Shown here in pieces: positions 3,532 to 64,000 of a stretch of DNA of 64,000 nucleotides (the first letter of the stretch is position 1; every line of letters begins with the position of its first letter). The translations under genes and the position numbers were made by a program. Below the pieces are notes generated by a model that ran no database searches, had not been told where the DNA came from, and worked only from the letters and a program-made list of their open reading frames with translations. Where the stretch lies: the NCBI GenBank assembly GCA_049999805.1, contig JBNGIO010006370.1:311212-375211 (forward strand). Direction: 5' to 3'. The stretch is from Folioceros fuciformis (taxonomy: Eukaryota).

Positions 3532-6111
3532 ATGGCCTCAGTATGGCTATCAGAACCCATCCGGACACAACAAATGGGTGTATGTACGGGAATGCTACGA
3601 GCAGGTCCCCTTCCCCTCACCTCAGGGATTGAACCCCTGGCAAACAGAGCCTCCGGCTGCAGCATTGTGAAGAGCTCAGCAGTTCCATGTCAGGGTGGGG
3701 ACAGCTTTTCCAGCGATGGTCGCTGCCAGAGGCTGGAGCAAGAGCAGAAGCATTTGTGGCCCCAATTCTTTCTGGAGCCTACCATGTGGTGGGACAACAG
3801 ACGAGCAAAGAAGAGCTCCCGTGCACCTCACTTCCGGCGTAAGGGGTCAGGCGAGGTCCCTTGGTTAAACATGTTAAAGCCAGGTTGGGTTGACGAGCAG
3901 GTCGTGACCTTGGATAAGCAGATGGGTCATGGTCCCCTTCGTTCCAATTCGAGCAGCAGGCGTGACGGATGGGAAACGGGCGTCGTAACGGCTGGGACCG
4001 TGAGCATGTTATGTCAGCAGGGGAAGCTTTCTGAGGCTGTCGGAGCCCTGGAATGTCTGACGCAGACGGACTTTGCCATTCCCCAGTCTCTCTTGTACAC
4101 TGTGCTAAAGCTGTGTACAGCCAAGAAGGACTTGGTTGTGGGGCGACGAGTTCATGATCTCAGTATTAGACTTGGGTTCGAGTCGGATGTATACTTGGGG
4201 AACCACATCTTGCGTATGTATGCATGTTGCGGTAGGCTGGAGGAGGCCATGGATGTGCTCACCAGGGTGGGTACACCAGATGCCTTCATGTGGTTTTCCA
4301 TAATTTCTGCGTACGCTAAACATGGGAAGGCTAAGGAGGCCATACAACTGTATCTTGAGATGTGTAGGTCAGGAGTGAAGGCGGATGCTCACGTCTTTGT
4401 AGCTGCCCTTCAAGCTTGTGCACTTGCCGCTGACTTGAAATCTGGCAGGCAAGTGCACTGTGATCTGTTGCACAGCGGCATTCCTGCTAACTTGTTTGTT
4501 GGCAACTGCCTGGTGGATATGTATGCAAAATGTGGTGAAGTGACAGATGCACGCCAGGTCTTTGACAGCATGGCCTCAAAGGATGTGGTGACATGGAATG
4601 CCCTGATAGCTGGGTATACCAAGCAAGGGTTTGGCCAGGAGGCTCTTGTTGTGTATGGACAGATGGAGCGGGAGGGCGTGCTTTTGGCTAACGATGTTAC
4701 CTTTTCTTGCCTTCTCAAGGCCTGCGCGAGCACTGGTGGCTTACAGCAGGGAAGGCAGCTGCACTCGCAGATTGTGGAGAGAGGGCTGCTGAATAACGTA
4801 CTGCTCGGCACCTGCCTGGTGGACATGTATGCAAAATGTGGCGAACTGGAATGTGCACGCCAGGTTTTTGAAAGCTTGGCCACAAAGGATGTGGTGACAT
4901 GGACCGCCCTGATTGCCGGGTATGCACAGCAAGGACTGGGCCAAGAGGCGCTTGTTGTGTACGGACAAATGCAGGAGGCGGGCCTCATTTTGGCTGATCG
5001 TGTTACGTTTGCTTGCCTTCTGAAGGCCTGTGGAAGCACTGGAGCCCTACAGAAGGGCAGGCAGCTGCACTCGCAGATCATCGAAAGGGGCCTGCTGGAT
5101 GATGTAGTGGTGGGGAACTGCCTGGTGGACATGTATGCAAAATGTGGTGGACTGGAAGAGGCACGCCATGTTTTTGACAGCTTGGCCACGAAAGATGTGG
5201 TGACATGGACCGCTCTCATATCTGGGTATGGTTGTAGTGATGAAGGTCACAAGGCACTGGCTTGTTTTGAGGAGATGTTGGTTGCCGGTATTCAGCCCAA
5301 TGATGCTACCTTTACTTGCCTGTTAGTAGCGTGCAGTCACGAGGGACTGGTTCAAGAGGGCCGCCAGCACTTCGATTCCATGGGTCAACAGCATGGCATC
5401 AATCCTACTATTGAGCATTACACCTGCATGATTGATCTTCTTGGGCGGGCAGGGCATTTGGAGGAGGCGGAGAAGATGCTCTTATCATGTGAGGGCCAAA
5501 GCAATGTTGTGGGCTTGACATGCTTGTTGAATGCCTGCAAAAATCACGGGGATTTGGAAAGGGCGATGTGGTGTTTTGAAAGCATCGTGTCGCTGCACCC
5601 CCAGGAGGGCCCTGCGTATGTTCTCATGGCCAATGCCTATGCGGATGCAGGCCGGTGGACCGATGTATATAGAATTGAGGCACGGAGAAGGGTTGCAGGA
5701 GCTAACAAGAAGCCGGCAGTGGCGACGATTGAGGTGAATAAGGAGGTACATAGATTTCTGGTAGGAGAAAAGAGAGCGGATATTGCGCTTAAGGCAGAGA
5801 GCACTAATGCACGGCTTAAGCAGGAAGGAGGCCACGTACCTCACACAAAGTTGGTGTTGAAGTCAGTGTGTGAGGAAGAAAAGGAAGATGCACTCTGTGG
5901 GCATGCTGAGAAGCTAGCTCTGGCATTCGGTCTCTTGAACACTCCGAGTGGGACTCCTCTGGTGGTAACTAAGAATCTACGCATGTGCAGTGACTGCCAT
6001 AGCTCCACGCAGATCATGTCAAGGCTTGAACATAGACACATCGTTGTGAGGGATGGGTACCGTGTGCATCGATTTGCAGCTGGTTCTTGCAGCTGTAAGG
6101 GTCGACCCTGA
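3532..6111 (+). CDS. PLS-PPR protein with N-terminal PDF(OSB)-like motif, E1/E2 and DYW:KP domain ending GRP (candidate U-to-C editing factor), copy 1
   Basis: P-L-S triplets; KKPAVATIEV modified PG box; HAEKLA; RMCSDCH; terminal CSCKGRP. The first ATG is 3532 (the ORF track starts at TTG 3529). Confidence 0.93.
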   Translation: MASVWLSEPIRTQQMGVCTGMLRAGPLPLTSGIEPLANRASGCSIVKSSAVPCQGGDSFSSDGRCQRLEQEQKHLWPQFFLEPTMWWDNRRAKKSSRAPHFRRKGSGEVPWLNMLKPGWVDEQVVTLDKQMGHGPLRSNSSSRRDGWETGVVTAGTVSMLCQQGKLSEAVGALECLTQTDFAIPQSLLYTVLKLCTAKKDLVVGRRVHDLSIRLGFESDVYLGNHILRMYACCGRLEEAMDVLTRVGTPDAFMWFSIISAYAKHGKAKEAIQLYLEMCRSGVKADAHVFVAALQACALAADLKSGRQVHCDLLHSGIPANLFVGNCLVDMYAKCGEVTDARQVFDSMASKDVVTWNALIAGYTKQGFGQEALVVYGQMEREGVLLANDVTFSCLLKACASTGGLQQGRQLHSQIVERGLLNNVLLGTCLVDMYAKCGELECARQVFESLATKDVVTWTALIAGYAQQGLGQEALVVYGQMQEAGLILADRVTFACLLKACGSTGALQKGRQLHSQIIERGLLDDVVVGNCLVDMYAKCGGLEEARHVFDSLATKDVVTWTALISGYGCSDEGHKALACFEEMLVAGIQPNDATFTCLLVACSHEGLVQEGRQHFDSMGQQHGINPTIEHYTCMIDLLGRAGHLEEAEKMLLSCEGQSNVVGLTCLLNACKNHGDLERAMWCFESIVSLHPQEGPAYVLMANAYADAGRWTDVYRIEARRRVAGANKKPAVATIEVNKEVHRFLVGEKRADIALKAESTNARLKQEGGHVPHTKLVLKSVCEEEKEDALCGHAEKLALAFGLLNTPSGTPLVVTKNLRMCSDCHSSTQIMSRLEHRHIVVRDGYRVHRFAAGSCSCKGRP

Positions 6112-7198: not shown

Positions 7199-9571
7199 AT
7201 GTGGCGGCTCAAGCAATTTCTGCACCCGGACCACGGGGGTTCGCTGGAGGGGAAGGTAGTGGATGTAGGGCAACTGAAGCTGCAGGTGCGGAACGCCATC
7301 GGGAAGGGCGGGCTGTCCTGTGTGTACCTGGTGAAGGATGTGGTGAGCGGGAAGAGCTATGCGCTGAAGCACATCATTTGCGCAGATTCGGAGATGGTGG
7401 ATCTGGTGAGGAAGGAAGTGCGGGTGATGGAGCAGCTGCGCTGGCATCCGAACATTGTGACGCTGCACGCGCAAGCTGTTTATGATACGGGGAGGACTAA
7501 GGAGTGCTTCCTGGTCATGGATCACTGCGAGCGGAACCTGGTGGATGTGCTTGATGGCCGGGGGGCGGGATACTTCGAGGAGAAGCAGCTGTTGCTCATG
7601 TTCCGGGATGTGTGTAACGCTGTGTGCGCTATGCATTGCCAGGTGCCGCCTGTTGCGCACAGGGATTTGAAGGCGGAGAACATGCTGCAGGGGGGGGATG
7701 GCGTGTGGAAGCTGTGTGATTTTGGGAGCACTTCGACTAAACATAAGCGGTTCGAAAAGCCCGATGAGATGGGGGTGGAGGAGGATGTGATCCGGAAGCA
7801 TACCACTCCTGCGTATCGGGCACCTGAGATGTGGGATCTGTATCAGAGGGAGGTTATCAGTGAGAAGGTTGATATTTGGGCTCTTGGATGTCTGTTATTC
7901 CGGATGGCTTACTTTACTTCTGCATTCACTGGTGACTCTAAGCTGCAGATTCTTAACGGGAACTATAGAATCCCCGAGTTGCCGCACTACAGCGATGCAG
8001 TCACGGGGCTTATTAAAGACATGCTTGCGCTTAGTCCAGGTGCCAGGCCAGATATAGGTCAGGTGTGGCGACGGGTGAACGAGAGTCTTCCTCCTGAACT
8101 TCAGAAAGCTCATCCCGACGAGCTACCAAACAGATATAGTTTGCCGCTAGAGAGTGGAAGTCAAGCACCCTCTCTCAGTGGACCTCCGAATGCAGGTCCC
8201 ATGCCTTCCAGGAGGCCTCCACCGCCTCCGGTGGACTTGAGACAGTCCGTGGGGTCGACAGGGGGGGGGCCCGTGGCGCACCCCTTACCAGCTGGTGGTA
8301 GCTTTTGGTCTTCCCAGTATGCTCAAACTGTCGGAGGGGTTGTTTCAGGACCATCCGGCGATGGAAGTCCGCTAAAAGTGCAGGTCAGTCCGCAGCCTGT
8401 GGCTAACTCTCAACAACGTATGCTTGCTAGTCCACAAGCTGGGGGCAACTCTCATGGTGTTCAAGGTAGTCCGTTAACGGGTTCTAGCTCCAGTGGAAAG
8501 CCTGCTTCTACTCCACCTAAGAGCGCCCCTTCTCCTCCAAGCGAGAGCTATTCTGTCTCACAGGATGCTTCGCTAGCAGGAAATCTGGCTGGGAGATTAA
8601 AGCTATCCGGTGACGGTGGAAATGGTGGGAGTCTGCAATCTTCTCCCGAGATGAGGCAATCTGTCACAAACCGTGACTCTAAGTCTGGTGAACACAGATA
8701 CACCAGCACTCAAGATCCGCCTCCCCTTACTCACGAGGTGAAGTCAGCCAGGGGAGCCACTTCTCGACGAACCATGTTTCGACAGTCTGCAACTGCTGCT
8801 CCACAGGCAGCAGCCAGCTCGGAGCAGTTTGGGGTCAAAAATCAGTATGATACACTGCAGGTTGAGAGTCCAAGAACTGTGGGTTCTATTTGGGAGCTTC
8901 AGGAAGGACTGACCAGTCCAGTTTTTAGGGAAAGTAGGCCGAGTGTACTGTCGGGGAGTTCAGAAGCTGCAAACATGCAAAGTCATTCGGTTGGGTTGGA
9001 GTCGATGGTGGGAAGGCCAAGAGAAGGTCCTCGATTCCAGACCTATTCCAGCTCCGGAGGCGACAATGGAGTTGTTAAAGGAGATGTCCGCAGCAGTTCG
9101 GGTCGATTTAGCAGTCAGCGGATCTCATTGCTTGAGAGACGACATGAAGCAGCAGCTGCCAGCCTGAGGGAGGAGCCTGCGTTTCCAATTCCATTTTCTA
9201 GCTCTGCAGGAGAGAATCGCATTTCCAAACGCGATGTTTTTAGCTCCTCCGACCGCTTTGGTCATCGAATTCCCGTGACGGACAGAAGACAAGACGGCAC
9301 CATGGGGCGGAGAATGACTGGCAATCCCGGAGGACCCAGCTGGGCTACTCAACAAGGCAGCATGGAGTCTCCTGCCACCTTCAGCCCAAGGTCTTCTGCA
9401 CCTTTCAGCCCAAGGTCGTCTGCACCTTTCAGCCCAAGATCCTTGTCTACTTTCAGTTCGACGAATCCTGATTCATCTTCCAGTTTCCCGAACATAGATC
9501 CTCTAAACAAGCGGACTGAAAACCTTCAGGTGCGCCCCAAGACTCAGCCTGCTGGATGGGCAGGTTTCTAA
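7199..9571 (+). CDS. Numb-associated kinase (NAK/AAK1-like) Ser/Thr kinase, intronless
   Basis: MWRLKQF...LEGKVVDVG N-terminus, YALKH, HRDLKAEN, KLCDFGSTS, HTTPAYRAPEMWDL, EKVDIWALGC, a long Ser/Pro-rich tail and terminal GWAGF (WxxF). Confidence 0.9.
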   Translation: MWRLKQFLHPDHGGSLEGKVVDVGQLKLQVRNAIGKGGLSCVYLVKDVVSGKSYALKHIICADSEMVDLVRKEVRVMEQLRWHPNIVTLHAQAVYDTGRTKECFLVMDHCERNLVDVLDGRGAGYFEEKQLLLMFRDVCNAVCAMHCQVPPVAHRDLKAENMLQGGDGVWKLCDFGSTSTKHKRFEKPDEMGVEEDVIRKHTTPAYRAPEMWDLYQREVISEKVDIWALGCLLFRMAYFTSAFTGDSKLQILNGNYRIPELPHYSDAVTGLIKDMLALSPGARPDIGQVWRRVNESLPPELQKAHPDELPNRYSLPLESGSQAPSLSGPPNAGPMPSRRPPPPPVDLRQSVGSTGGGPVAHPLPAGGSFWSSQYAQTVGGVVSGPSGDGSPLKVQVSPQPVANSQQRMLASPQAGGNSHGVQGSPLTGSSSSGKPASTPPKSAPSPPSESYSVSQDASLAGNLAGRLKLSGDGGNGGSLQSSPEMRQSVTNRDSKSGEHRYTSTQDPPPLTHEVKSARGATSRRTMFRQSATAAPQAAASSEQFGVKNQYDTLQVESPRTVGSIWELQEGLTSPVFRESRPSVLSGSSEAANMQSHSVGLESMVGRPREGPRFQTYSSSGGDNGVVKGDVRSSSGRFSSQRISLLERRHEAAAASLREEPAFPIPFSSSAGENRISKRDVFSSSDRFGHRIPVTDRRQDGTMGRRMTGNPGGPSWATQQGSMESPATFSPRSSAPFSPRSSAPFSPRSLSTFSSTNPDSSSSFPNIDPLNKRTENLQVRPKTQPAGWAGF
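9370..9445 (+). repeat. 24-bp coding tandem repeat (SAPFSPRS), about 3 copies
   Basis: Unit ttcagcccaaggtcttctgcacct repeated in the kinase tail. Confidence 0.85.
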
Positions 9572-28200: not shown

Positions 28201-28329
28201 TGTACATTTTTTGAAGATGATGATACACAAGTATAATGACAGGAAAAGACAATGAGTGAACACCAAGGCTTAAGGCTATTCGCAAATGACACAATATGCT
28301 CACCTTTGAATCCAGGTTGGGTGGGTAGC

Positions 28330-49570: not shown

Positions 49571-52500
49571 ATGACCAGACTATGGGAATCGGATCCATTG
49601 TGGACCCAGCAGATTGGTGTGTGTACAGGGATTCTAAGAGCAGGGCCTGCTCACCTCAGCTTTAGGAGTCAGCTGCTGGGGGGCAGTCAATTGTTGAGGT
49701 GCAGCTGCGTAAGCAATCCAGAAGTTCGACCTCCGGGAGAATGTGTGGGTGGGGAACGGTTCTCCAGCGATGGTCATCGCCAAGAGCAGGAGCTCTTGTG
49801 GCAAATGTTTTTTCTGGACCCTACCATGTGGTGGGACAACCGGCGGGATAGAAAGAGCCCCCGTTGGCCTGACTTTCGGCGGAAGGGGTCAGGCGAGGTC
49901 CTGTGGTTAAACAACATGTTCAAGCCTGCTTGGGTGGATGAGCAGCTAGTTTCTTTAGATGTTCAGATGGCTCATGGGGCCTCTCCTTCCAAGTGGAGTT
50001 CTTCGAAGAAGCCTGAGCATGGCAGGCTTGCAGGATCGGAAATGGGCGGCACAACGGCTGTGACTGTGAGCATGTTATGCCAGCAGGGTAGACTGAGGGA
50101 GGCCGTGGAAGCCCTGGATTGTCTGGCGCACACTGGCTGTCCCATTTCTGTGTCGGTGTTTTATGCTGTCCTGAAGCTGTGCACAGCGAAGAAGGATTTG
50201 GTGATGGGGCGGCGAGTTCATGACCTAACTGTGAAACTTGGGTACGAGTCAAATACATACCTGGGGAACCATATCTTGCGCATGTATGCTTGCGGGGGTA
50301 GGCTGCAGGAGGCCATGGATGTGTTCACCACGGTACGCAATCCAGATGTTTTCATGTGGTTTTCCATAATCTCCGCACATGCTAAACATGGGAAGCATCA
50401 CGAGGCCGTACAGCTATACCATGAGATGTGTAGGTCAGGAGTGAAGCCAGATGGTCACGTCTTTGTAGCTGCCCTGCAAGCTTGTGCATTAGCCACCGAC
50501 CTTGAGTCTGGCAGAAAAGTGCACTCTCATGTGTTGCACAGTAGTATTCCTCCTGACTTATTTGTTGGTGCCTGCCTGGTGGACATGTATGCAAAATGTA
50601 GCGAAATGGAACATGCGCGCAGGGTATTTGACAGCTTGGCCACCAAAAATGTGGTGGCATGGAACGCCCTAATTTCTGGCTATGCAAATCATGGGCCTGC
50701 TCAAGAGGCGCTCGTTCTGTTTGAACAAATGGAGCAGGAAGGCCTCCTTGAGCCTGACCACATCACGTTTGCTTCCCTTCTCAAGGCCTGTGCAAGCATT
50801 TGTGCCTTATCGCAGGGCAGGCAACTGCATTCCCAGATTGTGGAAAGAGGACAGCTAGACAACATAGTGCTGGGCACCTGCCTGGTGGATATGTACGCAA
50901 AATGTGGCGAACTGGAAGATGCACGCCTGGTTTTTGACAGATTGGCCAGGAAGGACGTGGTGGCGTGGAATGCCCTGATTGGCGGGTATGCACAGCAAGG
51001 TCTTGGGCACGAGGCACTTGTTTTGTATGGACAGATGGAGCAGGAGGGCCTGACTGTGCCTGACCATGTTACTTTTGCTTGTCTTCTGAAGGCCTGTGCA
51101 ACTGCGGGTGCCCTGCAGAAGGGCAGGCAACTGTTTTCGCAGATCGTTGAAAGAGGACTTCTAGATAACATACTGGTCGTCAATTGCCTGGTGCACATGT
51201 ATGCCAAATGTGGCGAACTGGAATGTGCACGCCAGATTTTTGACAGCTTGCCCACAAAGGACGTGGTGACATGGAATGCTTTGATTTCGGGGTACGCACA
51301 ACAAGGGCTCGGCCAGGAGGCGCTTGTTCTGTATGAAGTGATGGAGCAGGACGGCCTCACGTTGGCTGACGAAGTTACTTTTGCTTGCCTTCTGAGTGCC
51401 TGTGCAAGCACTGGTGCCGTGCAAAAGGGCAGGCAGCTGCACTCGCAAATCGTGGAAAGAGGACTGCTTGACAACGTAGTGTTGGGCAACTGCCTGGTGG
51501 ACATGTATGCAAAATGTGGCGAACTGAAAGATGCACACCAGGTTTTTGACGGCTTGATCAGGAAGGATGTGGTTACATGGAATGCCCTGATCGCTGGTTA
51601 TGCCCAGCAAGGGCTTGGCCAAGAGGCGCTTTTCTTGTATGATCGAATGGAGCACGAGGGCCTGGTTGTGGCTGACCAAGGTACTTTCTCTTGCCTTCTC
51701 AAGGCCTGTTCGAGTGTTGGTGCCTTACAAAAGGGCCGGCAGCTGCATTCACACATCGTGGAACGAGGACTGGTAGACAACATACTGGTTTCCAACTGCC
51801 TGGTGGACATGTACGCAAAATGCGGTGAGCTGAAGGAAGCTCGCCAGGTTTTTGATAGCTTGCCCACAAAGGATGTGGTGACATGGAACGCCTTGATAGG
51901 TGGTTGTGGTACTTGTGACGAAGGTCACCAAGCACTGGCCTGTTTTGGGGCGATGTTAGCTACTGGTACCCAGCCTGATGAAGCTACCTTTACTTGCCTT
52001 TTAGCAGCATGCAGCCACGAGGGACTTGTGCATGAGGGCCGCAAGCTCTTCCATTCCATGGTTGAACAGCATGGAGTCAAACCTACAGTCGAGCATTACA
52101 ATTGCATGATCGATCTTCTCGGGCGTGCAGGCCAGTTACACGAGGCAGAGAACGTGCTCTTGTCCTGTGAGAGCTGCCAAAGCAATGCCGTGGGGCTGAT
52201 GTCTTTGCTGAATTCCTGCAAGAGTCACGGCGATCTAGACAAGGCAGCCCGGTGTTTCGAAAGTCTCGTCAGACTGGAGCCCCAGTGTGCATCTGCATAT
52301 GTGCTTATGGCCAATGCCTACGCCGATGCAGGTAGGTGGACCGATGTAGACAGGATTGAAACACAGCGGGTGGGAGCAGGAGCTGACAAGAAACCTGCAG
52401 TGGCAACCATTGAGGTGAAGACGCAGGTCCACACATTTGTGGTGGGAGAGAGAAGAGGTGACCTTGCCCTCAAGATAGAGAGCACGAATGCCCGTCTGAA

Positions 52501-52792
52501 GGGGGAAGGAGGCCATGTACCCCAGACGAAGTTGGTGTTGAAGCCACTGCGCGAGAAGGAAAAAGAGGATGCGCTTTGTGGTCATGCTGAGAAGCTGGCT
52601 CTGGCGTTTGGTCTCTTGAACACTCCCGATGGCATACCTTTGGTGGTAACCAAGAATCTGCGCATGTGCAGTGACTGCCACAATTCCACGGAGATCATGT
52701 CGAGGGTTGAGAAGAGGGACATCGTTGTAAGAGATAGCTACCGTGTGCATCGATTTGTGGCTGGTTCTTGCACTTGCAACGGCCGACCTTGA
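49571..52792 (+). CDS. PDF-motif/PLS-PPR/DYW:KP-GRP protein, copy 2 (longest array)
   Basis: MTRLWESDPLWTQQIGVCTG leader; WWDNRRDRKSPRWPDFRRKGSGEVLWL; 306-bp periodic PLS triplets; KKPAVATIEV; HAEKLA; CSDCH; CTCNGRP. Confidence 0.94.
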   Translation: MTRLWESDPLWTQQIGVCTGILRAGPAHLSFRSQLLGGSQLLRCSCVSNPEVRPPGECVGGERFSSDGHRQEQELLWQMFFLDPTMWWDNRRDRKSPRWPDFRRKGSGEVLWLNNMFKPAWVDEQLVSLDVQMAHGASPSKWSSSKKPEHGRLAGSEMGGTTAVTVSMLCQQGRLREAVEALDCLAHTGCPISVSVFYAVLKLCTAKKDLVMGRRVHDLTVKLGYESNTYLGNHILRMYACGGRLQEAMDVFTTVRNPDVFMWFSIISAHAKHGKHHEAVQLYHEMCRSGVKPDGHVFVAALQACALATDLESGRKVHSHVLHSSIPPDLFVGACLVDMYAKCSEMEHARRVFDSLATKNVVAWNALISGYANHGPAQEALVLFEQMEQEGLLEPDHITFASLLKACASICALSQGRQLHSQIVERGQLDNIVLGTCLVDMYAKCGELEDARLVFDRLARKDVVAWNALIGGYAQQGLGHEALVLYGQMEQEGLTVPDHVTFACLLKACATAGALQKGRQLFSQIVERGLLDNILVVNCLVHMYAKCGELECARQIFDSLPTKDVVTWNALISGYAQQGLGQEALVLYEVMEQDGLTLADEVTFACLLSACASTGAVQKGRQLHSQIVERGLLDNVVLGNCLVDMYAKCGELKDAHQVFDGLIRKDVVTWNALIAGYAQQGLGQEALFLYDRMEHEGLVVADQGTFSCLLKACSSVGALQKGRQLHSHIVERGLVDNILVSNCLVDMYAKCGELKEARQVFDSLPTKDVVTWNALIGGCGTCDEGHQALACFGAMLATGTQPDEATFTCLLAACSHEGLVHEGRKLFHSMVEQHGVKPTVEHYNCMIDLLGRAGQLHEAENVLLSCESCQSNAVGLMSLLNSCKSHGDLDKAARCFESLVRLEPQCASAYVLMANAYADAGRWTDVDRIETQRVGAGADKKPAVATIEVKTQVHTFVVGERRGDLALKIESTNARLKGEGGHVPQTKLVLKPLREKEKEDALCGHAEKLALAFGLLNTPDGIPLVVTKNLRMCSDCHNSTEIMSRVEKRDIVVRDSYRVHRFVAGSCTCNGRP

Positions 52793-53984
52793 TCAATGCA
52801 TGAATGCAGCAGGCAGGCCACCCAATGCTGGCAAGAGTTCGCGCCTGCCATTGCAGACTGATGTCGTTATAATTCCACCATTAATAAAGTGGTCGTTCAA
52901 GCTCTGATTGTCAGAATTGGGAATGGGGGAGATGGGACCATGACTTCAACAATACAGTCCACCTTCCCTAAATGTTACCTGTTTGGAGTAGGGCACCTGT
53001 TTGGAGTAGGGCACGGGGTAACATCTAGAGAGTAACAATTAGAGAATTCAAGTATTTATCAAAAATACAATATTTCAATTTTATTTAAAATAGGGTTATT
53101 TAAAAATATATTATATATTATTAAATATATAATATAAACATATAAACATAATACATTAAAAAAAAGAACTTCAAATTGGCCTCAAAAAATGGGTTATTTT
53201 TACTTGTTTAAAGAGGACCTAACTTGCTGTAAAACTTCTTTCTCAATTTGATGCAAATTCTTAATTGTAGATGTCATATCATTTGATTGTTGCTCCATAA
53301 ATATACTATCGTTCCCAAGTACATCTTCATTTGAGCATAACCCAAAATAGGCCTTTTTTATAATATTCTTTAGAAGAATTTTCAACATGGACAACTTCAT
53401 TTTGAAGTAGAGGTTGAACAGAAGCCTATATATCATCTGCATTCGCAGTAGAAAAAATAGCACATGCATTTATCACCGCATAATCAACAAATTCTTGTAA
53501 GACATAGTGGGGTCAATCTTATTGTTTCAAGTTCTAAATCTCTCAGTTGACAAAGAAGCATTTCTATTTCTACGTAATTTCTATTAAACAAATCTTCACT
53601 GTATTGCTTGGTGGACATGCTATTGCTCATCATCATTGTCAGCATTCTGTATCTAAAACTAAGTTGATTGTCAGCATTCTATATTTAAAACTAAGACGTG
53701 TTACCACTTTGTCTCTTAAGACTCTCAAGTCTTTCCAGTGTATATTCGACATGCTACCACTTGCTCTCTCTACCCATAACCTGGAATGTTTCCAACAATT
53801 TCGAATGATTTTCTCTTTTACATGATTTTCTCTTTCGAATGATTTTTTCTTTAACATCAATACGCCAAGCTCTTCATGGCATTGNNNNNNNNNNNNNNNN
53901 NNNNNNNNNNNNNNNNNNNNNNNNNNNNNNNNNNNNNNNNNNNNNNNNNNNNNNNNNNNNNNNNNNNNNNNNNNNNNNNNNNNN

Positions 53985-54768: not shown

Positions 54769-57384
54769 TCACGGTCGACCATTACAGCTGCAACAACCAT
54801 CTGCAAACCGATGCACACGGTACCCATCCCTTACAACAATGTCTCTGTGCTCAACCCTTGACATGATCTCCGTGGAACTATGGCAGTCGCTGCACATGCG
54901 CAGATTCTTCGTCACCACTAGAGGTATCCCACTCGGAGTGTTCAAGAGACCAAACGCCAATGCTAGCTTCTCAGCGTGCCCACAAAGTGCATCTTCCTTT
55001 TCCTTCTCACCCAGTGGCTTTAACACCAACTTTGTATGAGGTACATGGCCCCCTTCCTCTTTCAGACGGGCATTCGTGCTCTCTACCTTCAGGGCAAGAT
55101 CATCTCTTCGTTCTCCCACCACGAATGTATGCACCTGCTTCTTCACCTCGATGGTTGCCATAGCAGGTTTCTTGTTAGCCCCTGCTACCACCCTTTGTGA
55201 TTCAATCCTGTCTACATCGGTCCACCTACCTGCGTCTGCATAGGCATTGGCCATGAGCACATATCCAGATGCACACTGAGGCTCCAGTCTAACGAGACTT
55301 TCAAAACAACGGGCCGCCCTGTCCAAATCCCCGTGATTCTTGCAGGCATTCAGCAAAGACGTCAACCCCACAGTATTGCTTTGGCTCTCACACGACAAGA
55401 GCATGTTCTCTGCCTCATCCAACTGGCCGGCACGCCCAAGAAGATCGATCATGCAGTTGTAATGCTCGACAGTGGGTTTGATGCCATGCTGTTCAGCCAT
55501 GGAATCAAAGTGTTTGCTACCCTCCCGGACGAGTCCCCCATGACTGCATGCTGCTAGAAGGCAGGTGAAAGTAGCCTCATCAGGCTGAATACCAGCAGCT
55601 AACATCTCCTCAAAACAAGCCAGTGCCTTGTGTCCGTCGTCACAAGTACCACACCCAGCTATCAGGGCATTCCAGGTCACCACATCCTTTGTGGACAGGC
55701 TGTCAAAAACTCGGCGTGCCTGCTTCAGCTCGCCACATTTTGCATACATGTCCACAAGGCCATTGCAAACCAATACATTATCTAGCAGCCCCCGTTCCAC
55801 AATTTGTAAATGCAGCTGCCGTCCCTGCTGCAAGGCACCGACGCTTGCACAGGCCTTGAGAAGGCACGCGAAAGTAACATGGTTGGGCAAAACTAGGCCA
55901 TCTTTCTCCATCTGTCCATACAGAGAAAGCGCCTCTTGACCGAGTCCTTGCTCTGTACACCCAGCTATCAGGGCATTCCATGTCACCACGTCCTTTGTAG
56001 CCAAGCTGTCAAAAACCTGGCGTGCATCTTTCATTTCCCCACATTTTGCGTACATGTCCACCAGACAATTGCCCAACACTACGTCACCCATCATTCCTCT
56101 TTCCACAATCTGTGAATGCAAGTGCCTGCCCTTCTGTAGGGCGCTGGTGCTTGCACAAGCCTTCAGAAGGCAGGCGAAAGTAACTTGGTCAGCCACAAGC
56201 AGGCCCTGTTCCTGCATTTGTTCATACAGACCAAGAGCCTGATGACCGCGACCATGATTCGCATAACCAGCAATCAGGGCCGTCCATGTCACCACATCCT
56301 TCGTGACCAAGCTGTCAAAAACCTGGCGTGCATCTCTCAGGTCTCCGCATTTCGCATACATGTCCACCAAGCAGTTTCCAACAATCAAGTTTGGAGGAAT
56401 CCTACTATGCAAAACATCACTGTGCACTTTCCTGCCAGCTTCCAGATCCGCGGCAAATGCACAAGCTTGAAGGGCAGCTACAAAGACGTGCGCATCCGCC
56501 TTCACCCCTGACCCACACATCTCACTGTACAGTTGTATGGCCTCGGTCGGCTTCCCATGTTGTGCATACGCGGAGATCATGGAACCCCACATGAAAGCAT
56601 CTGGTTTGCCAACCCTGGTGAACACATCCATAGCCTCCTGTACCCTACCTCCACATGCGTACATGCGCAAGAGATGGTTGCCCAAGTATGCATTCGACTC
56701 ATGCCCAAGTTGGACAGTGAGATCATGAACTCGTCGTCCCAAAACTAAATCCTTCTTCGCTGTACACAGTTTGAGCACGGCATAAAACAGAGTCGGGGAA
56801 ATGGGGCAGTCTGTCTGCGCTAGACATTCCAGGGCTCCAACAGCCTCAGCAAGCTTCCCCTGCTTACAGAACGTACTCACTGTCACAACGGTCACAATGC
56901 CTGATCCTGCAGATCTGCCAGGATCACGATTATCCGTAGGGCTCAAGTTGGAAGGAGAGGCACCATGACCCATCTGCACATCCAAAGAAACAAGCTGCTC
57001 ATCCACCCAAGCTGGCTTGAACATGCTGTTTAACCAGAGGACCTCACCGCCGGATCCCTTGCGCCGGAAGTCAGGAGAACGAGAGCTCTTCTTATCTCGC
57101 CTGTTGTCCCACCACATTGCAGGGTTCAGAAAAAGTTGTTGCCACAAGAGCTCTTGCTCCTGCTCCTGCTCCTGGCGACGATAATCGTTGGTAAATCCGT
57201 CCCCAGCTACGCTTTCTCTTGGAAGTGGAACTGCTGGGCTCCTTCCACTGGTGCACATTGAAGCTTGGTTACTTGCCAGACGTAGGCACCCAATCATGAG
57301 GTGAGGCGGAGCTCCTCGAAGAATCCCTGAACACACACCAATCTGTTGGGTGCGCACCGGGTCCGGTTGCCATATTGTGCCCAT
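54769..57384 (-). CDS. PDF-motif/PLS-PPR/DYW:KP-GRP protein, copy 3
   Basis: MGTIWQPDPVRTQQIGVCSG; LWQQLFLNPAMWWDNRRDKKSSRSPDFRRKG; PLS array; KKPAMATIEV; HAEKLA; CSCNGRP. Confidence 0.94.
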   Translation of the reverse strand: MGTIWQPDPVRTQQIGVCSGILRGAPPHLMIGCLRLASNQASMCTSGRSPAVPLPRESVAGDGFTNDYRRQEQEQEQELLWQQLFLNPAMWWDNRRDKKSSRSPDFRRKGSGGEVLWLNSMFKPAWVDEQLVSLDVQMGHGASPSNLSPTDNRDPGRSAGSGIVTVVTVSTFCKQGKLAEAVGALECLAQTDCPISPTLFYAVLKLCTAKKDLVLGRRVHDLTVQLGHESNAYLGNHLLRMYACGGRVQEAMDVFTRVGKPDAFMWGSMISAYAQHGKPTEAIQLYSEMCGSGVKADAHVFVAALQACAFAADLEAGRKVHSDVLHSRIPPNLIVGNCLVDMYAKCGDLRDARQVFDSLVTKDVVTWTALIAGYANHGRGHQALGLYEQMQEQGLLVADQVTFACLLKACASTSALQKGRHLHSQIVERGMMGDVVLGNCLVDMYAKCGEMKDARQVFDSLATKDVVTWNALIAGCTEQGLGQEALSLYGQMEKDGLVLPNHVTFACLLKACASVGALQQGRQLHLQIVERGLLDNVLVCNGLVDMYAKCGELKQARRVFDSLSTKDVVTWNALIAGCGTCDDGHKALACFEEMLAAGIQPDEATFTCLLAACSHGGLVREGSKHFDSMAEQHGIKPTVEHYNCMIDLLGRAGQLDEAENMLLSCESQSNTVGLTSLLNACKNHGDLDRAARCFESLVRLEPQCASGYVLMANAYADAGRWTDVDRIESQRVVAGANKKPAMATIEVKKQVHTFVVGERRDDLALKVESTNARLKEEGGHVPHTKLVLKPLGEKEKEDALCGHAEKLALAFGLLNTPSGIPLVVTKNLRMCSDCHSSTEIMSRVEHRDIVVRDGYRVHRFADGCCSCNGRP

Positions 57385-57890
57385 CGTTCAGGCACCGCTG
57401 TGAGAAAAAGCGAGGTGCACGAAAAATAATGGCAGGATGCCTGGGTACTTCACACGAGCACACCACCCTGACGGTCCACACTGCAGACGGTGTTTCATCA
57501 GAAGGCCGCAAGACATCGGCGTGACAACTCCAGAGTTGCACGGGGGAGAATTTTTTGCGGCCGTGTGCTGTCCATCGTGTATGGAATACCTTTCTCGTCA
57601 ACTTTTTGTGGCGTGAGAACTTGTGTCATCTTGATACATGCACCGATAAGGCCTTCTGCGGGAGGGTCACCTGAGCATCGGGTAGGTGGAGAAGCAACTC
57701 GGGAAGTTATTGCTAGCATCGTAGCAACCGCATGGCATTGGGCGGTGTGGGAGAGACTTGCGGAACGGTTGAGAACAAGAACGGAACTTGTGCCGAACGA
57801 GTGCTTGAAGTGCGTATGCCTCAGTCTGGATGATAATAAGTAGCATGGCGTGGATACTTGCTTCGGAGTGGGGAAAGCGTTGCCTGTAAC

Positions 57891-60590
57891 ATGATCATTG
57901 TATGGGAACTGGATCGGTTGTGGACCCAACAAACGGGTGGGTGTACAGGAATTCTACGAGGATCTCCTGCTCACCTCGTCACCACAGGGAATCAAGCTCT
58001 GGGAATCAATGTTGCCAGGTGCAGCAGTGCGCGGAAATCAGGACTCTCACTTCCTGGAAAATTCGTGGGTGGGGAAGGATTTCCCAATGATGGTCGTCGG
58101 CAGGAGCAGGAGCAAGAGCAGGAGCTTCTGTGGCAGGAATTTTTTGTGGACAGTAGGCTTGATAACAGGAGCTCCCGGTCGCCTGACTTCCGACGTAAGG
58201 GGTCAGGCGATGGGGTCCTGAGGTTGGACAACATGCTCAAGCCAGCTAGGGTGGACGAGCAGCTCATTTGTTGGGACAGGCAGCTGGGTCGTGGTGCCTC
58301 TTCTTCTTCCCAGTCCAGCTCTCCGAAGAAGCCTGGTCCTGGGTGGCGCAGAGGACCGGCAGTTGGCGTTGTGACGGCTGAAACTGTGAGCACGTTGTGT
58401 GAGCACGGGAAGCTTACTGAGGCTGTAGAAGCCCTGCAAGCTCTGGCGCTCACAGACTGCCCTCTTCCTCCGTCTCTGATTTATGCTGTGCTCAAACTGT
58501 GTACAGTTGAGAAGGATTTGGTTGTGGGGCAACGAGTGCATGAGCTCACCGTGAAACTTGGATACGAGTCGAATGCTTTCTTGGGGAATCATCTCGTGCG
58601 GATGTATGCAGCTGGCGGTCGGCTACAAAAGGCCATGGATGTGTTCACCAGGGTAGGGAAGCCAGATGCCTTCATGTGGTCTTCCATAATCTCCGCGTAC
58701 GCTAAACATGGGAAACCCCATGAGGCCATTGAATTGTACCATGAAATGCGCAGGTTGGGCGTGAAGGCGGATGCTCACGTGTTTGCCGCTGCCCTTCAAG
58801 CTTGCGCACTTGCTGCCGACTTGGAATCTGGCATGAAACTACACAGGGATGTGTTGCACAGTGGCATTCCTCTGGACTTGTTTCTTGGCACCTGCGTGGT
58901 GGACATGTATGCAAAATGCGACAAACTGGAAGATGCACGCAGGGTGTTTGACAGCTTGGGCACAAAGAATGTGGTGACATGGACGGCCCTCATAACTGGG
59001 TACGCGAAATCTGGAGACGTGGAAGTTGCACGCCAGATTTTTGACGGCTTGGCCACAAAAAGTGTGGTGACATGGAATGCTCTGATTGCTGGGTACACAC
59101 AGCAAGGTCACGGCCAAGAGGCGCTTGTCTTGTACGGAGAAATGGAGAGGGAGGGCCAGATTGTTGCGGACTATGTTACTTTTGCTTGTCTGCTGCAGGC
59201 CTGCGGAAGCACTGGTGCCTTACAGCAGGGCAGACAGCTCCACTCACAGATTGTGGAAAGAGGGCTGCTACATACGAAACTACTTGGAAACTGCCTGGTG
59301 GACATGTATGCCAAATGTGGCGAACTGGAAGATGCTCGCAGGGTGTTTGATAGCTTGGTCACAAAGGATGTAGTAACATGGACGGCCCTGATTGGTGGGT
59401 ATACCCAGCAAGGACTTGCTCACGAGGCCCTTCTTCTGTACGAACAGATGGAGCAGGAGGGCCTGGTTGTGGCTGACCATGTTACTTTGGCCTTCCTTCT
59501 GAAAGCCTGTGCAAGCGCCGGTGCCTTACAGAAGGGCAGACAGTTGCACTTCCAGATCGGGAAGAAGGGACTGCTAGATGACATACTGGTTGGCACGTGC
59601 TTGGTTGACATGTATGCAAAATGTGGCGAACTCAAAGATGCAAGAGCGGTGTTTGACAGCTTGGTCACGAAGGATGTTGTGACATGGACATCCCTGATAT
59701 CTGGGTACGGTTCTTGTGATGAAGGTCACAAGGCATTAGCCTGTTTTGAGGAGATGTTGGTTGCCGGTATTCAGCCTGATGATGCTACCTTTACCTGCCT
59801 TCTAGTGGCATGCAGTCATGAGGGACTGGTCCATGAGGGTCGCAAGCACTTCGAATCTATGGCTGCACAGCATGGCATCAACCCTACTCTTGAGCATCAC
59901 AACTGCATGGTGGATCTTCTCGGGCGTGCAGGCCATTTAGATGAGGCAGAGGACATGCTTTTGTCATGTGAGAGCCAGAGTAACGCTGTTGGGTGGACGT
60001 CTTTGCTGTCTGCCTCAACAAGTCACAGCGACGTAGATAGGGCGGCACGGTGTTTCGAAAGGCTTGTGGCGTTGGACCCTCAGCAGGCGCCAGCGTATGT
60101 GCTCATGGCCAATGCCTATGCAGACGCAGGTAGGTGGACAGATGTAGAGAGGATTGAAGCACTGAGAATGGGGGCAGGAGCTAGCAAGAAACCTGCAGTA
60201 GCAGGCATCGAGGTGAAGGAGCAGGTACATACATTTGTGGTAGGAGAGAGGACAGATGCCATCGCGCTGAAGGTAGTGAGCACGAGTGCGCGGCTGAAGG
60301 AGGAAGGGGGACACGTACCACAGACAAGGCTGGTGTTGAAGCCACTGTCTGAGAACGAAAAGGAAGATGTGCTCTGTGGGCATGCAGAGAAGCTAGCCCT
60401 GGCGTTTGGTCTCTTGAACACTCCCAATGGCGCCCCTCTGGTAGTAACAAAGAATCTACGCATGTGCAGTGATTGCCACAGTTCCACGGAGATAATGTCC
60501 AGGCTTGAAAAGAGAGACATTGTTGTGAGGGATGGATACCGAGTGCATCGATTCACGTCTGGTTGTTGCAGTTGTCAAGGCCGACCGTGA
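57891..60590 (+). CDS. PLS-PPR/DYW:KP-GRP protein with partly degenerate PDF motif, copy 4
   Basis: MIIVWELDRLWTQQTGGCTG; LWQEFFVDSRLDNRSSRSPDFRRKG; one extra 31-aa SS repeat; KKPAVAGIEV; HAEKLA; CSCQGRP. The first ATG is 57891. Confidence 0.93.
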   Translation: MIIVWELDRLWTQQTGGCTGILRGSPAHLVTTGNQALGINVARCSSARKSGLSLPGKFVGGEGFPNDGRRQEQEQEQELLWQEFFVDSRLDNRSSRSPDFRRKGSGDGVLRLDNMLKPARVDEQLICWDRQLGRGASSSSQSSSPKKPGPGWRRGPAVGVVTAETVSTLCEHGKLTEAVEALQALALTDCPLPPSLIYAVLKLCTVEKDLVVGQRVHELTVKLGYESNAFLGNHLVRMYAAGGRLQKAMDVFTRVGKPDAFMWSSIISAYAKHGKPHEAIELYHEMRRLGVKADAHVFAAALQACALAADLESGMKLHRDVLHSGIPLDLFLGTCVVDMYAKCDKLEDARRVFDSLGTKNVVTWTALITGYAKSGDVEVARQIFDGLATKSVVTWNALIAGYTQQGHGQEALVLYGEMEREGQIVADYVTFACLLQACGSTGALQQGRQLHSQIVERGLLHTKLLGNCLVDMYAKCGELEDARRVFDSLVTKDVVTWTALIGGYTQQGLAHEALLLYEQMEQEGLVVADHVTLAFLLKACASAGALQKGRQLHFQIGKKGLLDDILVGTCLVDMYAKCGELKDARAVFDSLVTKDVVTWTSLISGYGSCDEGHKALACFEEMLVAGIQPDDATFTCLLVACSHEGLVHEGRKHFESMAAQHGINPTLEHHNCMVDLLGRAGHLDEAEDMLLSCESQSNAVGWTSLLSASTSHSDVDRAARCFERLVALDPQQAPAYVLMANAYADAGRWTDVERIEALRMGAGASKKPAVAGIEVKEQVHTFVVGERTDAIALKVVSTSARLKEEGGHVPQTRLVLKPLSENEKEDVLCGHAEKLALAFGLLNTPNGAPLVVTKNLRMCSDCHSSTEIMSRLEKRDIVVRDGYRVHRFTSGCCSCQGRP

Positions 60591-62364: not shown

Positions 62365-64000
62365 ATGGGCACAGTGTGGCAATCAGCACCGTTGTGGACC
62401 CAACAGATTGGTGCGTGTACTGGGCTGCTACCAGCAGCTCCCGCTCACATCACTTCGGGGAGTGAACTGCTGGCAGAAAAAGCCTCCAGGTGGAGCACTG
62501 GAAGGAGCCAAGCTCTTCCAGTTTCGAAAAAATGTGTGAGCGGGAACGGATTTTCCAGCGATGGGTTGCGCCGACAGCAGGAGCACTTGTGGCATCAGTT
62601 TTTTCTAGACCCTGCCATGTGGGTGGACAACAGACGACACAAGCAGAGCTCCCGTTCGCCTGATTTCCGACGTAAGAGGTCGGGCGAGGTGCTGTGGCTG
62701 AACAACATGTTTAAGCCTGCTTGGGTTGATGAGCAGCTGGTTTCCTTGGACATGCAGGTGGTAGGTGGGGCAGCCGCTCTGTCGAAGTTGAGCTTGGATG
62801 GGTCTGGCACGAATGTTGGATCGGAAATGGGCGTCGTAACGCCTGGAGTTGTGAGCATGTTGTGTCGGCAGGGGAAGCTGGATGAGGCTGTTGGAGCCCT
62901 GGATTCCCTGGCGCAGTCGAGCTCTGCTGTTTCTGAGTCTCTGTTGTACAGTGTGCTGAAGCTGTGTATGGTGAAGAAGGACTTGGTTGTAGGGCGACGA
63001 GTTCATGATCTCGCTGCAGAACTTGGGTACGAGTCGAGTCCGTTTTTGGGGAACCATATCTTGCGCATGTATGCTTGTGGCGGGAGTCTGCAGGAGGCGA
63101 TGGAGGTGTTCACCAGGGTGGGGAAACCGAATGTGTTTATGTGGTTCTCCATAATATCTGCTCATGCGAAGCACGGGAGACCGAAGGAGGCCATACAACT
63201 GTACCATGCGATGCGTAGGTCAGGTGTGAAGGCGAATGCTCACGTCTTTGTGGCTACCCTTCAGGCTTGTGCATTTGCTGCCGATTTGGAGTCTGGCAGA
63301 GAAGTGCACTGTGATGTGTTGCACAGTGGCGTTCCTCCTGACTTGTTTGTTGGCAACTGCCTGGTGGACATGTATGCGAAGTGTGGCGAATTGAAAGATG
63401 CACGCCAGGTGTTTGATAGCATGGTCGTTAAGGATGTGGTGACATGGAATTCCCTGATATCTGGGTATGCGAAATGTGGTGAACTGAACAAGGCACGCCG
63501 TGTCTTCGACAGCATGAGGGCAAAGGATGTGGTGACATGGAATTCCCTGATAGGTGGATACGCCCAGCAGGGTCTCGGACATGAGGCACTTGTCCTGTAT
63601 GGACAAATGGAGCAGGAGGGGCTGGTTTTGGCTGACAATGTTACTTTTGCTTGCCTTCTGAAGGCCTGTGCAAGCACTGGTGCCTTACAGAAGGGCAGGC
63701 AGCTGCACTCGCAGATTGTTGAAAGAGGGCCGCTGAATGACATAGTGCTGGGCAACTGCCTGGTGGATCTGTATGCCAAATGTGGTGAACTGGATGCTGC
63801 ACGCCAGGTTTTTGTCAGCCTCTCGTGTAAGGATGTGGTGACATGGACATCGCTGATCTCTGGGTATGCAAAGGGAGGACTGGGCCAAGAGGCACTTGAT
63901 TTGTATGGACAAATGGAGGAAGCGGGCCTGATTTTAGCTGATGATGTTACTCTTGCTTGCCTTCTGAACGCCTGTGGAAGCACCGGTGCCTTACAAATGG
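62365..64000 (+). CDS. PDF-motif/PLS-PPR protein, copy 5 (3' end outside the window; GRP C-terminus inferred)
   Basis: Missing from the ORF track because it has no stop. MGTVWQSAPLWTQQIGACTG leader; LWHQFFLDPAMWVDNRRHKQSSRSPDFRRKRSGEVLWL; PLS and SS repeats open to the window end. Confidence 0.9.
   Translation, partial: MGTVWQSAPLWTQQIGACTGLLPAAPAHITSGSELLAEKASRWSTGRSQALPVSKKCVSGNGFSSDGLRRQQEHLWHQFFLDPAMWVDNRRHKQSSRSPDFRRKRSGEVLWLNNMFKPAWVDEQLVSLDMQVVGGAAALSKLSLDGSGTNVGSEMGVVTPGVVSMLCRQGKLDEAVGALDSLAQSSSAVSESLLYSVLKLCMVKKDLVVGRRVHDLAAELGYESSPFLGNHILRMYACGGSLQEAMEVFTRVGKPNVFMWFSIISAHAKHGRPKEAIQLYHAMRRSGVKANAHVFVATLQACAFAADLESGREVHCDVLHSGVPPDLFVGNCLVDMYAKCGELKDARQVFDSMVVKDVVTWNSLISGYAKCGELNKARRVFDSMRAKDVVTWNSLIGGYAQQGLGHEALVLYGQMEQEGLVLADNVTFACLLKACASTGALQKGRQLHSQIVERGPLNDIVLGNCLVDLYAKCGELDAARQVFVSLSCKDVVTWTSLISGYAKGGLGQEALDLYGQMEEAGLILADDVTLACLLNACGSTGALQM

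What the first reader, a model, noticed from the sequence alone, without database searches (positions are those of the whole stretch)
3754..62740. Candidate U-to-C editing PPRs carry an N-terminal OSB-type PDF ssDNA-binding module
Seen: all five paralogs have a ~50-aa module upstream of the first PPR repeat, consensus LWQxFFLxPxMWWDNRRxKKSxRxPDFRRKGSGEVLWLNxMxKPxWVDEQL. It lies at ~3754-3903, ~49796-49948, ~56993-57149 (minus), ~58128-58266 and ~62587-62739. Established: the PDF motif of plant organellar single-stranded DNA-binding (OSB) proteins has, as I recall, the consensus LWQxFFxNPxxWWDNRxxKxNPKxPDFKHKDTGEALWL and mediates ssDNA binding. Typical editing PPRs have only a transit peptide before the array. 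Inference: the architecture leader-PDF-PLS-E1/E2-DYW:KP joins a sequence-specific PPR reader and a base-modifying domain to a non-specific single-strand binder. That could tether editing to nucleoids or R-loops, melt RNA structure, or allow action on ssDNA. I do not know of a description of this fusion, but I cannot check the literature.
Basis: partly seen in the sequence, partly recalled or inferred. Interest (0 to 1): 0.88.

Follow-up and report, generated by a model that had tools for sequence, protein, structure and literature searches.

The report
OSB-type PDF domain on editing PPRs

Summary
The window holds five intronless PLS-E-DYW:KP (GRP-type, so probably hornwort) PPR genes. Each has one ~50-aa module between a variable leader and the first PPR repeat.

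A six-frame scan finds exactly these five copies. The copy in g4 is degenerate, and g1 reads PHF instead of PDF.

The module is a genuine OSB-type PDF motif:
- A profile of the five modules hits 602 proteins, including proteins named OSB1; a wider profile with 13 other PPR-linked modules hits named OSB1-4.
- A profile built from 265 non-PPR PDFs scores the window copies at 24-74 bits.
- Identity to a Populus OSB1 PDF is 54%.

It behaves as a working domain. dN/dS is 0.05-0.34, against 0.45-1.4 in the flanks. AlphaFold predicts a confident small alpha/beta domain between a disordered leader and a disordered linker.

The fusion is not specific to U-to-C factors. Lycophyte and fern PDF-PPR proteins end in canonical DYW:PG domains or E-type ends.

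No description was found in the searchable literature. Pfam has no PDF model, so Pfam-based domain surveys cannot see it.

Most likely role: an accessory binder of single-stranded nucleic acid. This is inferred, not tested.

The parts
3532..6111 (+). g1: PLS-E-DYW:KP (GRP) PPR gene, 859 aa, intronless ORF
3754..3903 (+). g1 PDF module (variant: PHF for PDF, PWL for LWL)
   Evidence: (51.5 bits to non-PPR PDF profile)
5710..6108 (+). g1 DYW:KP domain, 133 aa (KPAVA box, HAEKLA, Lys at position 88, CSDCH, tail GRP)
49571..52792 (+). g2: PLS-E-DYW:KP (GRP) PPR gene, 1073 aa
49796..49948 (+). g2 PDF module
   Evidence: (65.4 bits)
52391..52789 (+). g2 DYW:KP domain
54769..57384 (-). g3: PLS-E-DYW:KP (GRP) PPR gene, 871 aa
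56992..57147 (-). g3 PDF module (corrected coordinates)
   Evidence: 73.6 bits; 54% identity to a Populus OSB1 PDF
57175..57384 (-). g3 leader, residues 1-70: fast-evolving, predicted disordered, presumed organelle presequence (inferred)
   Evidence: dN/dS 0.45-1.19; pLDDT <50 for residues 1-64
56890..56991 (-). g3 linker, residues 132-165, between PDF and first PPR helix: fast-evolving; residues 141-161 predicted disordered
   Evidence: (dN/dS 0.59-1.41)
54772..55170 (-). g3 DYW:KP domain
57891..60590 (+). g4: PLS-E-DYW:KP (GRP) PPR gene, 899 aa, divergently arranged with g3
58128..58265 (+). g4 PDF module, degenerate (6-aa deletion of PxMWW, W-to-R changes)
   Evidence: (24.3 bits)
60189..60587 (+). 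g4 DYW:KP domain
62365..63999 (+). g5: PPR gene of the same family, cut by the window end after 545 aa
62587..62739 (+). g5 PDF module
   Evidence: (71.1 bits)

Best explanation
Each of the five genes encodes a PLS-class PPR editing factor of the DYW:KP/GRP kind. Its mature protein starts with one autonomous PDF domain, the ~50-aa motif that in OSB proteins binds single-stranded DNA.

The layout is: a variable, disordered leader (presumed presequence); a folded PDF domain (helix, small beta-sheet, helix); a disordered linker of roughly 20-35 aa; a PPR array; E motifs; and a DYW:KP domain.

The proposed role is a sequence-unspecific accessory binder of single-stranded nucleic acid on a flexible tether. 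PPR arrays bind RNA with their N-terminus towards the RNA 5' end (recalled, established). The PDF would therefore reach the RNA just 5' of the PPR footprint. There it could raise affinity or on-rate, or keep the site unstructured. This is a cis-acting helper in lineages that lack MORF proteins.

Shown: homology, domain autonomy (predicted), purifying selection, and recurrence of the architecture in ferns and lycophytes with any type of C-terminus. Inferred: that the domain binds nucleic acid here, and that the ligand is RNA.
For: Homology:
- A profile of the 5 modules finds 602 proteins at E<=1e-3 and 146 at E<=1e-10.
- Most hits are 200-500-aa proteins with 1-13 mostly C-terminal copies, including proteins named OSB1.
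- A second profile, of 4 window modules plus 13 PPR-linked modules, finds proteins named OSB1-4, some with Pfam SSB.
- The reciprocal profile of 265 non-PPR PDFs scores the window copies at 73.6, 71.1, 65.4, 51.5 and 24.3 bits.
- Identity to a Populus OSB1 PDF is 30/56.
- 13 core positions share the same consensus residue at >=80% in 101 PPR-linked and 393 other PDFs: W4, P11, W14, D16, R18, K21, P27, D28, F29, L39, W40, P47, W49.

Functional retention:
- dN/dS in the module is 0.05-0.34, against 0.45-1.19 in the leader, 0.59-1.41 in the linker and 0.17-0.32 in the PPR part. dS is about 0.4-1.5.

Autonomous fold on a tether:
- The module alone gives pLDDT 90.7.
- In the 330-aa N-terminal model, residues 1-64 and 141-161 are below pLDDT 50, the module is at 85-91, and the PPR helices are above 90.

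Generic helper rather than U-to-C chemistry:
- 63 PDF+PPR proteins carry 1-3 N-terminal PDFs and have DYW:PG, E-type or KP ends.
- Three are ORFs from a Pteridium transcriptome, so the fusion is transcribed as one ORF in a fern.

From papers:
- The PDF motif of AtOSB1 is sufficient for ssDNA binding (PMC6963530, passages read, citing Zaegel 2006).
- MORF genes occur only in seed plants (PMC13386178, passages read).
Against: - No binding data exist for any PPR-linked PDF.
- AtOSB1 and AtOSB2 bind ssDNA in preference to dsDNA or RNA (PMC4166229, passage read). This favours a DNA ligand over RNA.
- g4 keeps an intact PPR-DYW:KP body although its PDF is degenerate. g1 has lost the D of PDF. The module is therefore dispensable or diverging in some paralogs.
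- Cleavage of the module together with the presequence cannot be excluded from sequence alone.
- Expression of these five genes was not shown.
- The predicted fold has no solved counterpart, so structure gives no functional support.
Confidence: 0.5

Rival explanations
1. Nucleoid or ssDNA tether. The PDF keeps its OSB-like preference for single-stranded DNA. It anchors the editing factor to transcription bubbles, R-loops or replication intermediates of the organelle nucleoid, so that the PPR array meets nascent RNA (co-transcriptional editing).
For: OSB1 and OSB2 prefer ssDNA over RNA (PMC4166229). The PDF of OSB1 suffices for ssDNA binding (PMC6963530). The core residues are the same in PPR-linked and OSB PDFs. 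The linker is flexible.
Against: There is no localisation or binding data. The PPR-linked PDFs form their own sequence groups and could have shifted specificity. PDF copy number varies from 1 to 3 with no evident link to DNA functions.
Confidence: 0.27
2. Protein-protein module. The PDF mediates oligomerisation or recruits other PDF-bearing or editosome proteins rather than binding nucleic acid.
For: AtOSB2 is a tetramer (PMC6963530). Domain fusion often mirrors protein interaction, an argument made in PMC13386178.
Against: Nothing assigns OSB oligomerisation to the PDF. The conserved aromatic and basic core is more typical of nucleic-acid binding (inference).
Confidence: 0.1
3. Vestige or presequence passenger. 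The module is a relic of an old fusion, is removed with the transit peptide, or has no function in the mature factor.
For: g4 has a degenerate copy and g1 a mutated PDF triplet. The module lies close to the N-terminus.
Against: dN/dS is 0.05-0.34, against about 0.5-1.4 in the true leader and in the linker. The architecture is retained across hornwort, fern and lycophyte proteins.
Confidence: 0.06
4. DNA as substrate. The PDF lets the DYW:KP domain act on single-stranded DNA (organellar DNA editing).
For: Only the ssDNA preference of OSB PDFs.
Against: The same module sits on factors with no DYW domain at all (51 of 63 by the motif tests). PPR arrays read RNA (established knowledge, recalled).
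Confidence: 0.03

Closest known systems
[quoted passage not shown] 2006, known here only through reviews)
   Same: The ~50-aa PDF motif: same length, same conserved core, 46-54% identity to the Populus OSB1 PDFs, and strong profile scores in both directions.
   Different: OSBs have an SSB-like OB fold followed by 1 to several C-terminal PDFs. Here there is no OB fold. A single PDF sits N-terminal to a PPR array with a DYW:KP domain.
PPR-DYW:KP proteins of the hornwort GRP subgroup (Gerke 2020 and Gutmann 2020, not readable here; designer KP2/KP3 in PMC9478123)
   Same: PLS array, E motifs and a 133-aa DYW:KP domain with KP box, HAE, Lys88, CxDCH and GRP tail.
   Different: The designer U-to-C editors described in PMC9478123 start with the PLS array behind a tag. 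The passages read mention no N-terminal PDF.
PDF-PPR proteins of Diphasiastrum complanatum, Selaginella, Adiantum, Ceratopteris and Pteridium (database entries annotated only as hypothetical or PPR proteins)
   Same: 1-3 N-terminal PDFs, a short linker, then a PLS-type PPR array.
   Different: Their C-termini are DYW:PG (11 proteins) or lack a DYW domain. Up to three PDFs occur per protein. Their PDFs fall partly in other sequence groups.
Trans- or cis-acting helpers of PLS PPRs: MORF/RIP, ORRM (RRM), and RRM-PPR or MORF-PPR fusions (PMC13386178)
   Same: The idea of an accessory domain that assists a PLS PPR editing factor. Such fusions are taken as signs of functional partnership.
   Different: The fold and family are unrelated. 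MORF is restricted to seed plants. The PDF fusion was seen here only in hornwort-type, fern and lycophyte proteins, within truncated hit lists.

Membership tests
PDF motif (OSB-type) | About 50 aa with a conserved Pro-Asp-Phe signature (PMC6963530) | tested here: met
   Modules are 46-52 aa. PDF is present in 4 of 5 copies; g1 has PHF.
PDF motif (OSB-type) | Significant sequence similarity to the PDFs of named OSB proteins | tested here: met
   (OSB1 hits). (OSB1-4 hits, mixed window and PPR-linked profile). (24-74 bits from a non-PPR PDF profile). (54% identity, E 5e-16).
PDF motif (OSB-type) | Binds single-stranded DNA | not testable with these tools
   Needs EMSA or anisotropy with the recombinant module.
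OSB protein family | Central SSB-like OB-fold domain, with the PDF(s) C-terminal to it | tested here: not met
   The window proteins show only PPR/TPR-type repeat, E-motif and DYW Pfam families plus a few sub-cutoff chance rows; PF00436 (SSB) is absent. The PDF is N-terminal. These are not OSB proteins.
PLS-class PPR-DYW:KP, GRP subgroup | PLS PPR array, E motifs and a DYW-family deaminase domain | tested here: met
   Pfam PPR families, E_motif and DYW_deaminase (E 1e-32 to 2e-33) in g1-g4. g5 is cut before its C-terminus.
PLS-class PPR-DYW:KP, GRP subgroup | KP instead of PG box; HxE...CxxC site; conserved Lys88; C-terminal GRP instead of DYW (PMC9478123, PMC11845758) | tested here: met
   KPAVA/KPAMA, HAEKLA, CSDCH, Lys at position 88 of the 133-aa domain, and a GRP tail in g1-g4.
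PLS-class PPR-DYW:KP, GRP subgroup | U-to-C editing activity | not testable with these tools
   Needs a heterologous editing assay.

The most novel reading that the evidence does not exclude
The PDF domain is an ancient built-in helper of PLS editing factors. It was fused once, before hornworts and vascular plants diverged. It is kept in the MORF-less, heavily editing lineages (hornworts, lycophytes, ferns). It is needed there for efficient editing because it grips single-stranded nucleic acid beside the PPR footprint. If so, adding it to designer PPR-DYW:KP or PPR-DYW:PG editors would raise their efficiency.
Probability: 0.2. Interest if true: 0.85.

Novelty: new variant of a known kind. Interest (0 to 1): 0.67.

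Why it matters
PLS-class PPR editing factors are usually described as a presequence, a PPR array and E/DYW domains. An extra, conserved domain borrowed from ssDNA-binding proteins appears on dozens of such factors in three non-seed plant lineages. That would add a component to the editing machinery of exactly those plants that edit most heavily and lack MORF helpers.

The idea is directly testable. The module can be assayed for binding, and native or designer editors can be compared with and without it. In bacteria, two of the three active designer U-to-C editors (the GRP-type KP2 and KP3) reached only 22-26%; the fern-type KP6 reached about 50% (PMC9478123), so there is a practical angle.

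The finding also shows a blind spot. Pfam has no PDF model, so Pfam-based domain surveys cannot see this fusion.

Tried and rejected
Searches that gave nothing useful:
- A single-module word search found no candidates. A region search with the Adiantum protein gave only 3 hits. Whether mosses, liverworts or seed plants have PDF-PPR fusions therefore stays open.
- The hit lists were truncated: 150 of 602 and 120 of 457.
- No whole genome is held for this window, so copies per genome could not be counted.
- The PDB sequence search gave only chance-level hits (E 0.43-0.51, CP29).
- Foldseek (best E 9) and VIA-align wide (best Z 2.4) gave no fold match.
- The ESM Atlas best score was 0.76, to a phage cluster, below the usable level.

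Expression:
- No RNA holder was listed.
- Laid contigs were swamped by paralogous PPR sequence. Run X1 gave exact pieces, including 57834-58396 across the g4 start and module. X1 may be DNA, so this is no evidence on transcription.

Phylogeny:
- The AU test on the full 212-row tree was unfinished after 863 s. It was replaced by a subset test.

Access:
- Papers not held: Zaegel 2006, Gerke 2020, Gutmann 2020.

Readings considered and rejected:
- Chance similarity.
- Membership in the OSB family, because there is no OB fold.
- The module as untranslated or leader sequence.
- The module as a specific mark of U-to-C factors.
Full report
**What is in the window**

The window holds six long PPR ORFs. 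Five are paralogs:
- g1, 3532-6111, plus strand
- g2, 49571-52792, plus strand
- g3, 54769-57384, minus strand
- g4, 57891-60590, plus strand
- g5, 62365 onwards, plus strand, cut by the window end

Pfam finds PPR repeats, an E motif and a DYW deaminase domain in g1-g4. It assigns no family to the first ~165 residues.

The DYW domains are of the KP kind. They have a KPAVA/KPAMA box, HAEKLA, CSDCH, a Lys at position 88 of the 133-aa domain, and the tail GRP. PMC9478123 (passages read) assigns the GRP variant to hornworts. PMC11845758 (passages read) shows that Lys88 is essential for U-to-C activity. The window is therefore probably hornwort nuclear DNA. That is an inference; no genome is held for it.

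**The observation**

The module translates as described at four of the five coordinates. The minus-strand interval is out of frame, and the module there is at 56992-57147.

The five copies align with 81% mean column identity. The g4 copy lacks six residues (PxMWW) and has W-to-R changes. The g1 copy reads PHF for PDF.

A six-frame scan of the whole window used a profile built only from non-PPR PDFs. It finds these five places (E 2e-07 to 9e-23); the only other row is one negative-score hit. The E+ PPR gene at 15095-17746 has no module.

**Identity of the module**

A profile of the five copies was searched against 1.84 billion representative proteins. It gave 602 hits at E<=1e-3, 146 at E<=1e-10 and 16 at E<=1e-30. 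The best 150 were listed.

In a local re-scan, most listed hits are proteins of about 200-500 aa with 1-13 copies, mostly in the C-terminal half. 13 of the 150 also have a PPR array.

Names recovered for a sample include 'protein OSB1, mitochondrial' from Populus and Phtheirospermum.

A second search used a profile of four window modules plus 13 PPR-linked modules. It gave 457 hits, of which 120 were listed. They include many proteins named OSB1, OSB2, OSB3 or OSB4, some carrying Pfam SSB.

The reciprocal test used a profile of 265 near-full-length PDFs from non-PPR hits. It scores g3 at 73.6 bits, g5 at 71.1, g2 at 65.4, g1 at 51.5 and g4 at 24.3. One caveat applies: those 265 domains were themselves collected with the window profile.

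The g3 module is 54% (30/56) and 46% identical to the two PDFs of a Populus OSB1.

Thirteen positions have the same consensus residue at >=80% in both 101 PPR-linked and 393 other PDFs.

Pfam has no model for this motif. OSB1-like proteins return either nothing or only SSB.

**Is it a working part of the protein?**

All five ORFs start at an aligned Met and run through the module into the array.

Pairwise dN/dS among the five paralogs (10 pairs per region, Nei-Gojobori, my own script):

| Region | dN/dS |
|---|---|
| Leader | 0.45-1.19 |
| PDF module | 0.05-0.34 |
| Linker | 0.59-1.41 |
| First PPR repeats | 0.17-0.32 |

dS is about 0.4-1.5, so the copies are old enough for this contrast to mean something.

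AlphaFold2 on the module, with a 17-row alignment, gives mean pLDDT 90.7 and the layout helix, two or three short strands, helix.

AlphaFold2 on g3 residues 1-330, with a 12-row alignment, gives:
- pLDDT below 50 for residues 1-64 and 141-161
- pLDDT 85-91 for the module
- pLDDT above 90 for the PPR helices from residue 166

The picture is a folded domain on a flexible tether behind a disordered leader. No solved structure resembles the model: Foldseek's best E is 9, and VIA-align's best Z is 2.4.

**The fusion elsewhere**

PDF+PPR proteins occur in several species:
- Adiantum capillus-veneris, Ceratopteris richardii and a Selaginella species
- Adiantum nelumboides
- Diphasiastrum complanatum (also P0103, named)
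- Pteridium aquilinum, as three ORFs from a transcriptome, so a fern transcribes module and array as one ORF

Of the 120 proteins listed, 50 carry PPR Pfam families. 48 of these are from Diphasiastrum complanatum, one from Adiantum and one is unnamed.

- 11 proteins, all Diphasiastrum, end in a canonical DYW:PG domain. All 11 have CxDCH and the tail DYW; most also show PGxSW and HSExLA.
- 51 show no DYW domain by my motif tests. Several of these are fragments or possibly truncated gene models.
- One unnamed entry (P0099) is KP/GRP like the window genes.

The module is therefore a feature of PLS-type PPR proteins in these lineages, not of U-to-C factors as such.

No moss, liverwort or seed-plant PDF-PPR appeared. 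Both lists were truncated, so their absence is not shown.

**Relationships among PDFs**

These results are exploratory: 60 alignment columns and a quick IQ-TREE search.

In a tree of 212 domains, redundancy-filtered from 494, the five window copies and P0099 group together (SH-aLRT 92). They lie inside a starred set of 15 rows (SH-aLRT 95). That set holds 14 PPR-linked PDFs (window, P0099, three from P0007, Ceratopteris, Adiantum, Pteridium, P0121) and one 162-aa fragment.

The Diphasiastrum PDFs sit in unresolved groups together with OSB1-like PDFs.

The PPR label needs 7 changes on the tree, against a shuffled mean of 45. Well-supported branches force at least 2 changes.

A subset test used 29 PPR-linked and 32 randomly drawn other PDFs. 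It dropped g4, 20 of 30 Diphasiastrum rows and 130 of 162 others. Holding all PPR-linked PDFs together as one clade is not rejected (p-AU 0.74). A single origin is therefore compatible with the data, but not demonstrated.

**Mechanism**

What is known of the PDF comes from reviews. In AtOSB1 the motif suffices for ssDNA binding (PMC6963530, passages read). OSB1 and OSB2 prefer ssDNA to dsDNA or RNA (PMC4166229, passage read).

PPR arrays bind RNA with the N-terminus towards the 5' end (recalled, established). An N-terminal PDF on a linker of roughly 20-35 aa would therefore lie at the 5' edge of the footprint. In g3 that is roughly 15 or more motifs upstream of the edited base (my estimate).

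I commit to an accessory, sequence-unspecific single-strand binder that strengthens or speeds target engagement. Its most likely ligand is the RNA flank (0.5).

The main rival is an ssDNA or nucleoid tether that places the factor at nascent RNA (0.27). The reported DNA preference of OSBs favours this rival.

Protein-protein interaction, a vestigial role and DNA editing are less likely.

MORF helpers are restricted to seed plants (PMC13386178, passages read), whereas the fusion was seen only in non-seed lineages. This fits a cis-acting substitute, but it is only a correlation from truncated lists.

**Novelty**

In the searchable library:
- 'PDF motif' with 'pentatricopeptide' returns one review that does not link them.
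- 'PDF motif' with 'RNA editing' returns nothing.
- No paper among the 15 top-ranked of 246 combines OSB with PPR and these lineages.
- 'WWDNR' returns only one unrelated paper.

A 2026 kingdom-wide survey of editing-factor domain fusions mentions neither OSB nor PDF in its main text. A 2026 OSB family survey required an OB fold and does not mention PPR.

The primary papers by Zaegel (2006), Gerke (2020) and Gutmann (2020) were not readable, and neither was any supplement. Prior mention cannot be excluded.

I rate the finding as a new variant of a known kind: known editing factors carrying a known domain in an architecture that appears to be undescribed.

Noticed in passing
window 58128-58265 (g4) and 3754-3903 (g1): Natural variants of the module. 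g4 has lost six core residues and two tryptophans, while the rest of the protein, including the DYW:KP site, looks intact. g1 reads PHF and PWL. These could serve as natural controls for the function of the module.
   Followed up: partly
window 15095-17746 (+): A sixth PPR gene, of E+ type (E motif and E+ motif, no DYW domain), has no PDF module and starts almost directly with PPR repeats.
   Followed up: partly
window 54769-60590: g3 and g4 are divergently arranged, about 500 bp apart. With g2 and g5 they form a tandem cluster within 15 kb. g1 lies 46 kb away. The family has expanded locally.
   Followed up: no
window 1470-3338 (+) and 7199-9571 (+): Two long uninterrupted ORFs. One is a coiled-coil protein with weak Fez1/ATG16 similarity. 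The other is a protein kinase with a long Ser/Pro-rich tail.
   Followed up: partly
window 24001-32000; N runs at 34366-34465, 46683-46782, 47936-48335, 53885-53984: A low-GC stretch (0.38-0.40, against 0.51-0.56 elsewhere) and four assembly gaps between the gene-rich parts. The content was not examined.
   Followed up: no
protein P0062 (unnamed source), residues 191-385 and 458-765: Three PDF motifs N-terminal to a kinesin motor domain in a 1526-aa protein. This is either another PDF fusion or a merged gene model.
   Followed up: partly
proteins P0005 (Kingdonia uniflora), P0006, P0008, P0182: Very long PDF arrays: 12, 9 and 10-11 copies. There is also a multi-PDF ORF of about six copies from a marine eukaryote transcriptome set (MMETSP). 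The motif is used far beyond the 1-3 copies described for Arabidopsis OSBs.
   Followed up: no
Diphasiastrum complanatum proteins, e.g. P0176-P0180: Lycophyte PPR proteins with three tandem N-terminal PDFs. First, second and third copies each cluster with the same-position copies of other proteins. This suggests the multi-PDF head was duplicated as a unit together with the genes.
   Followed up: partly
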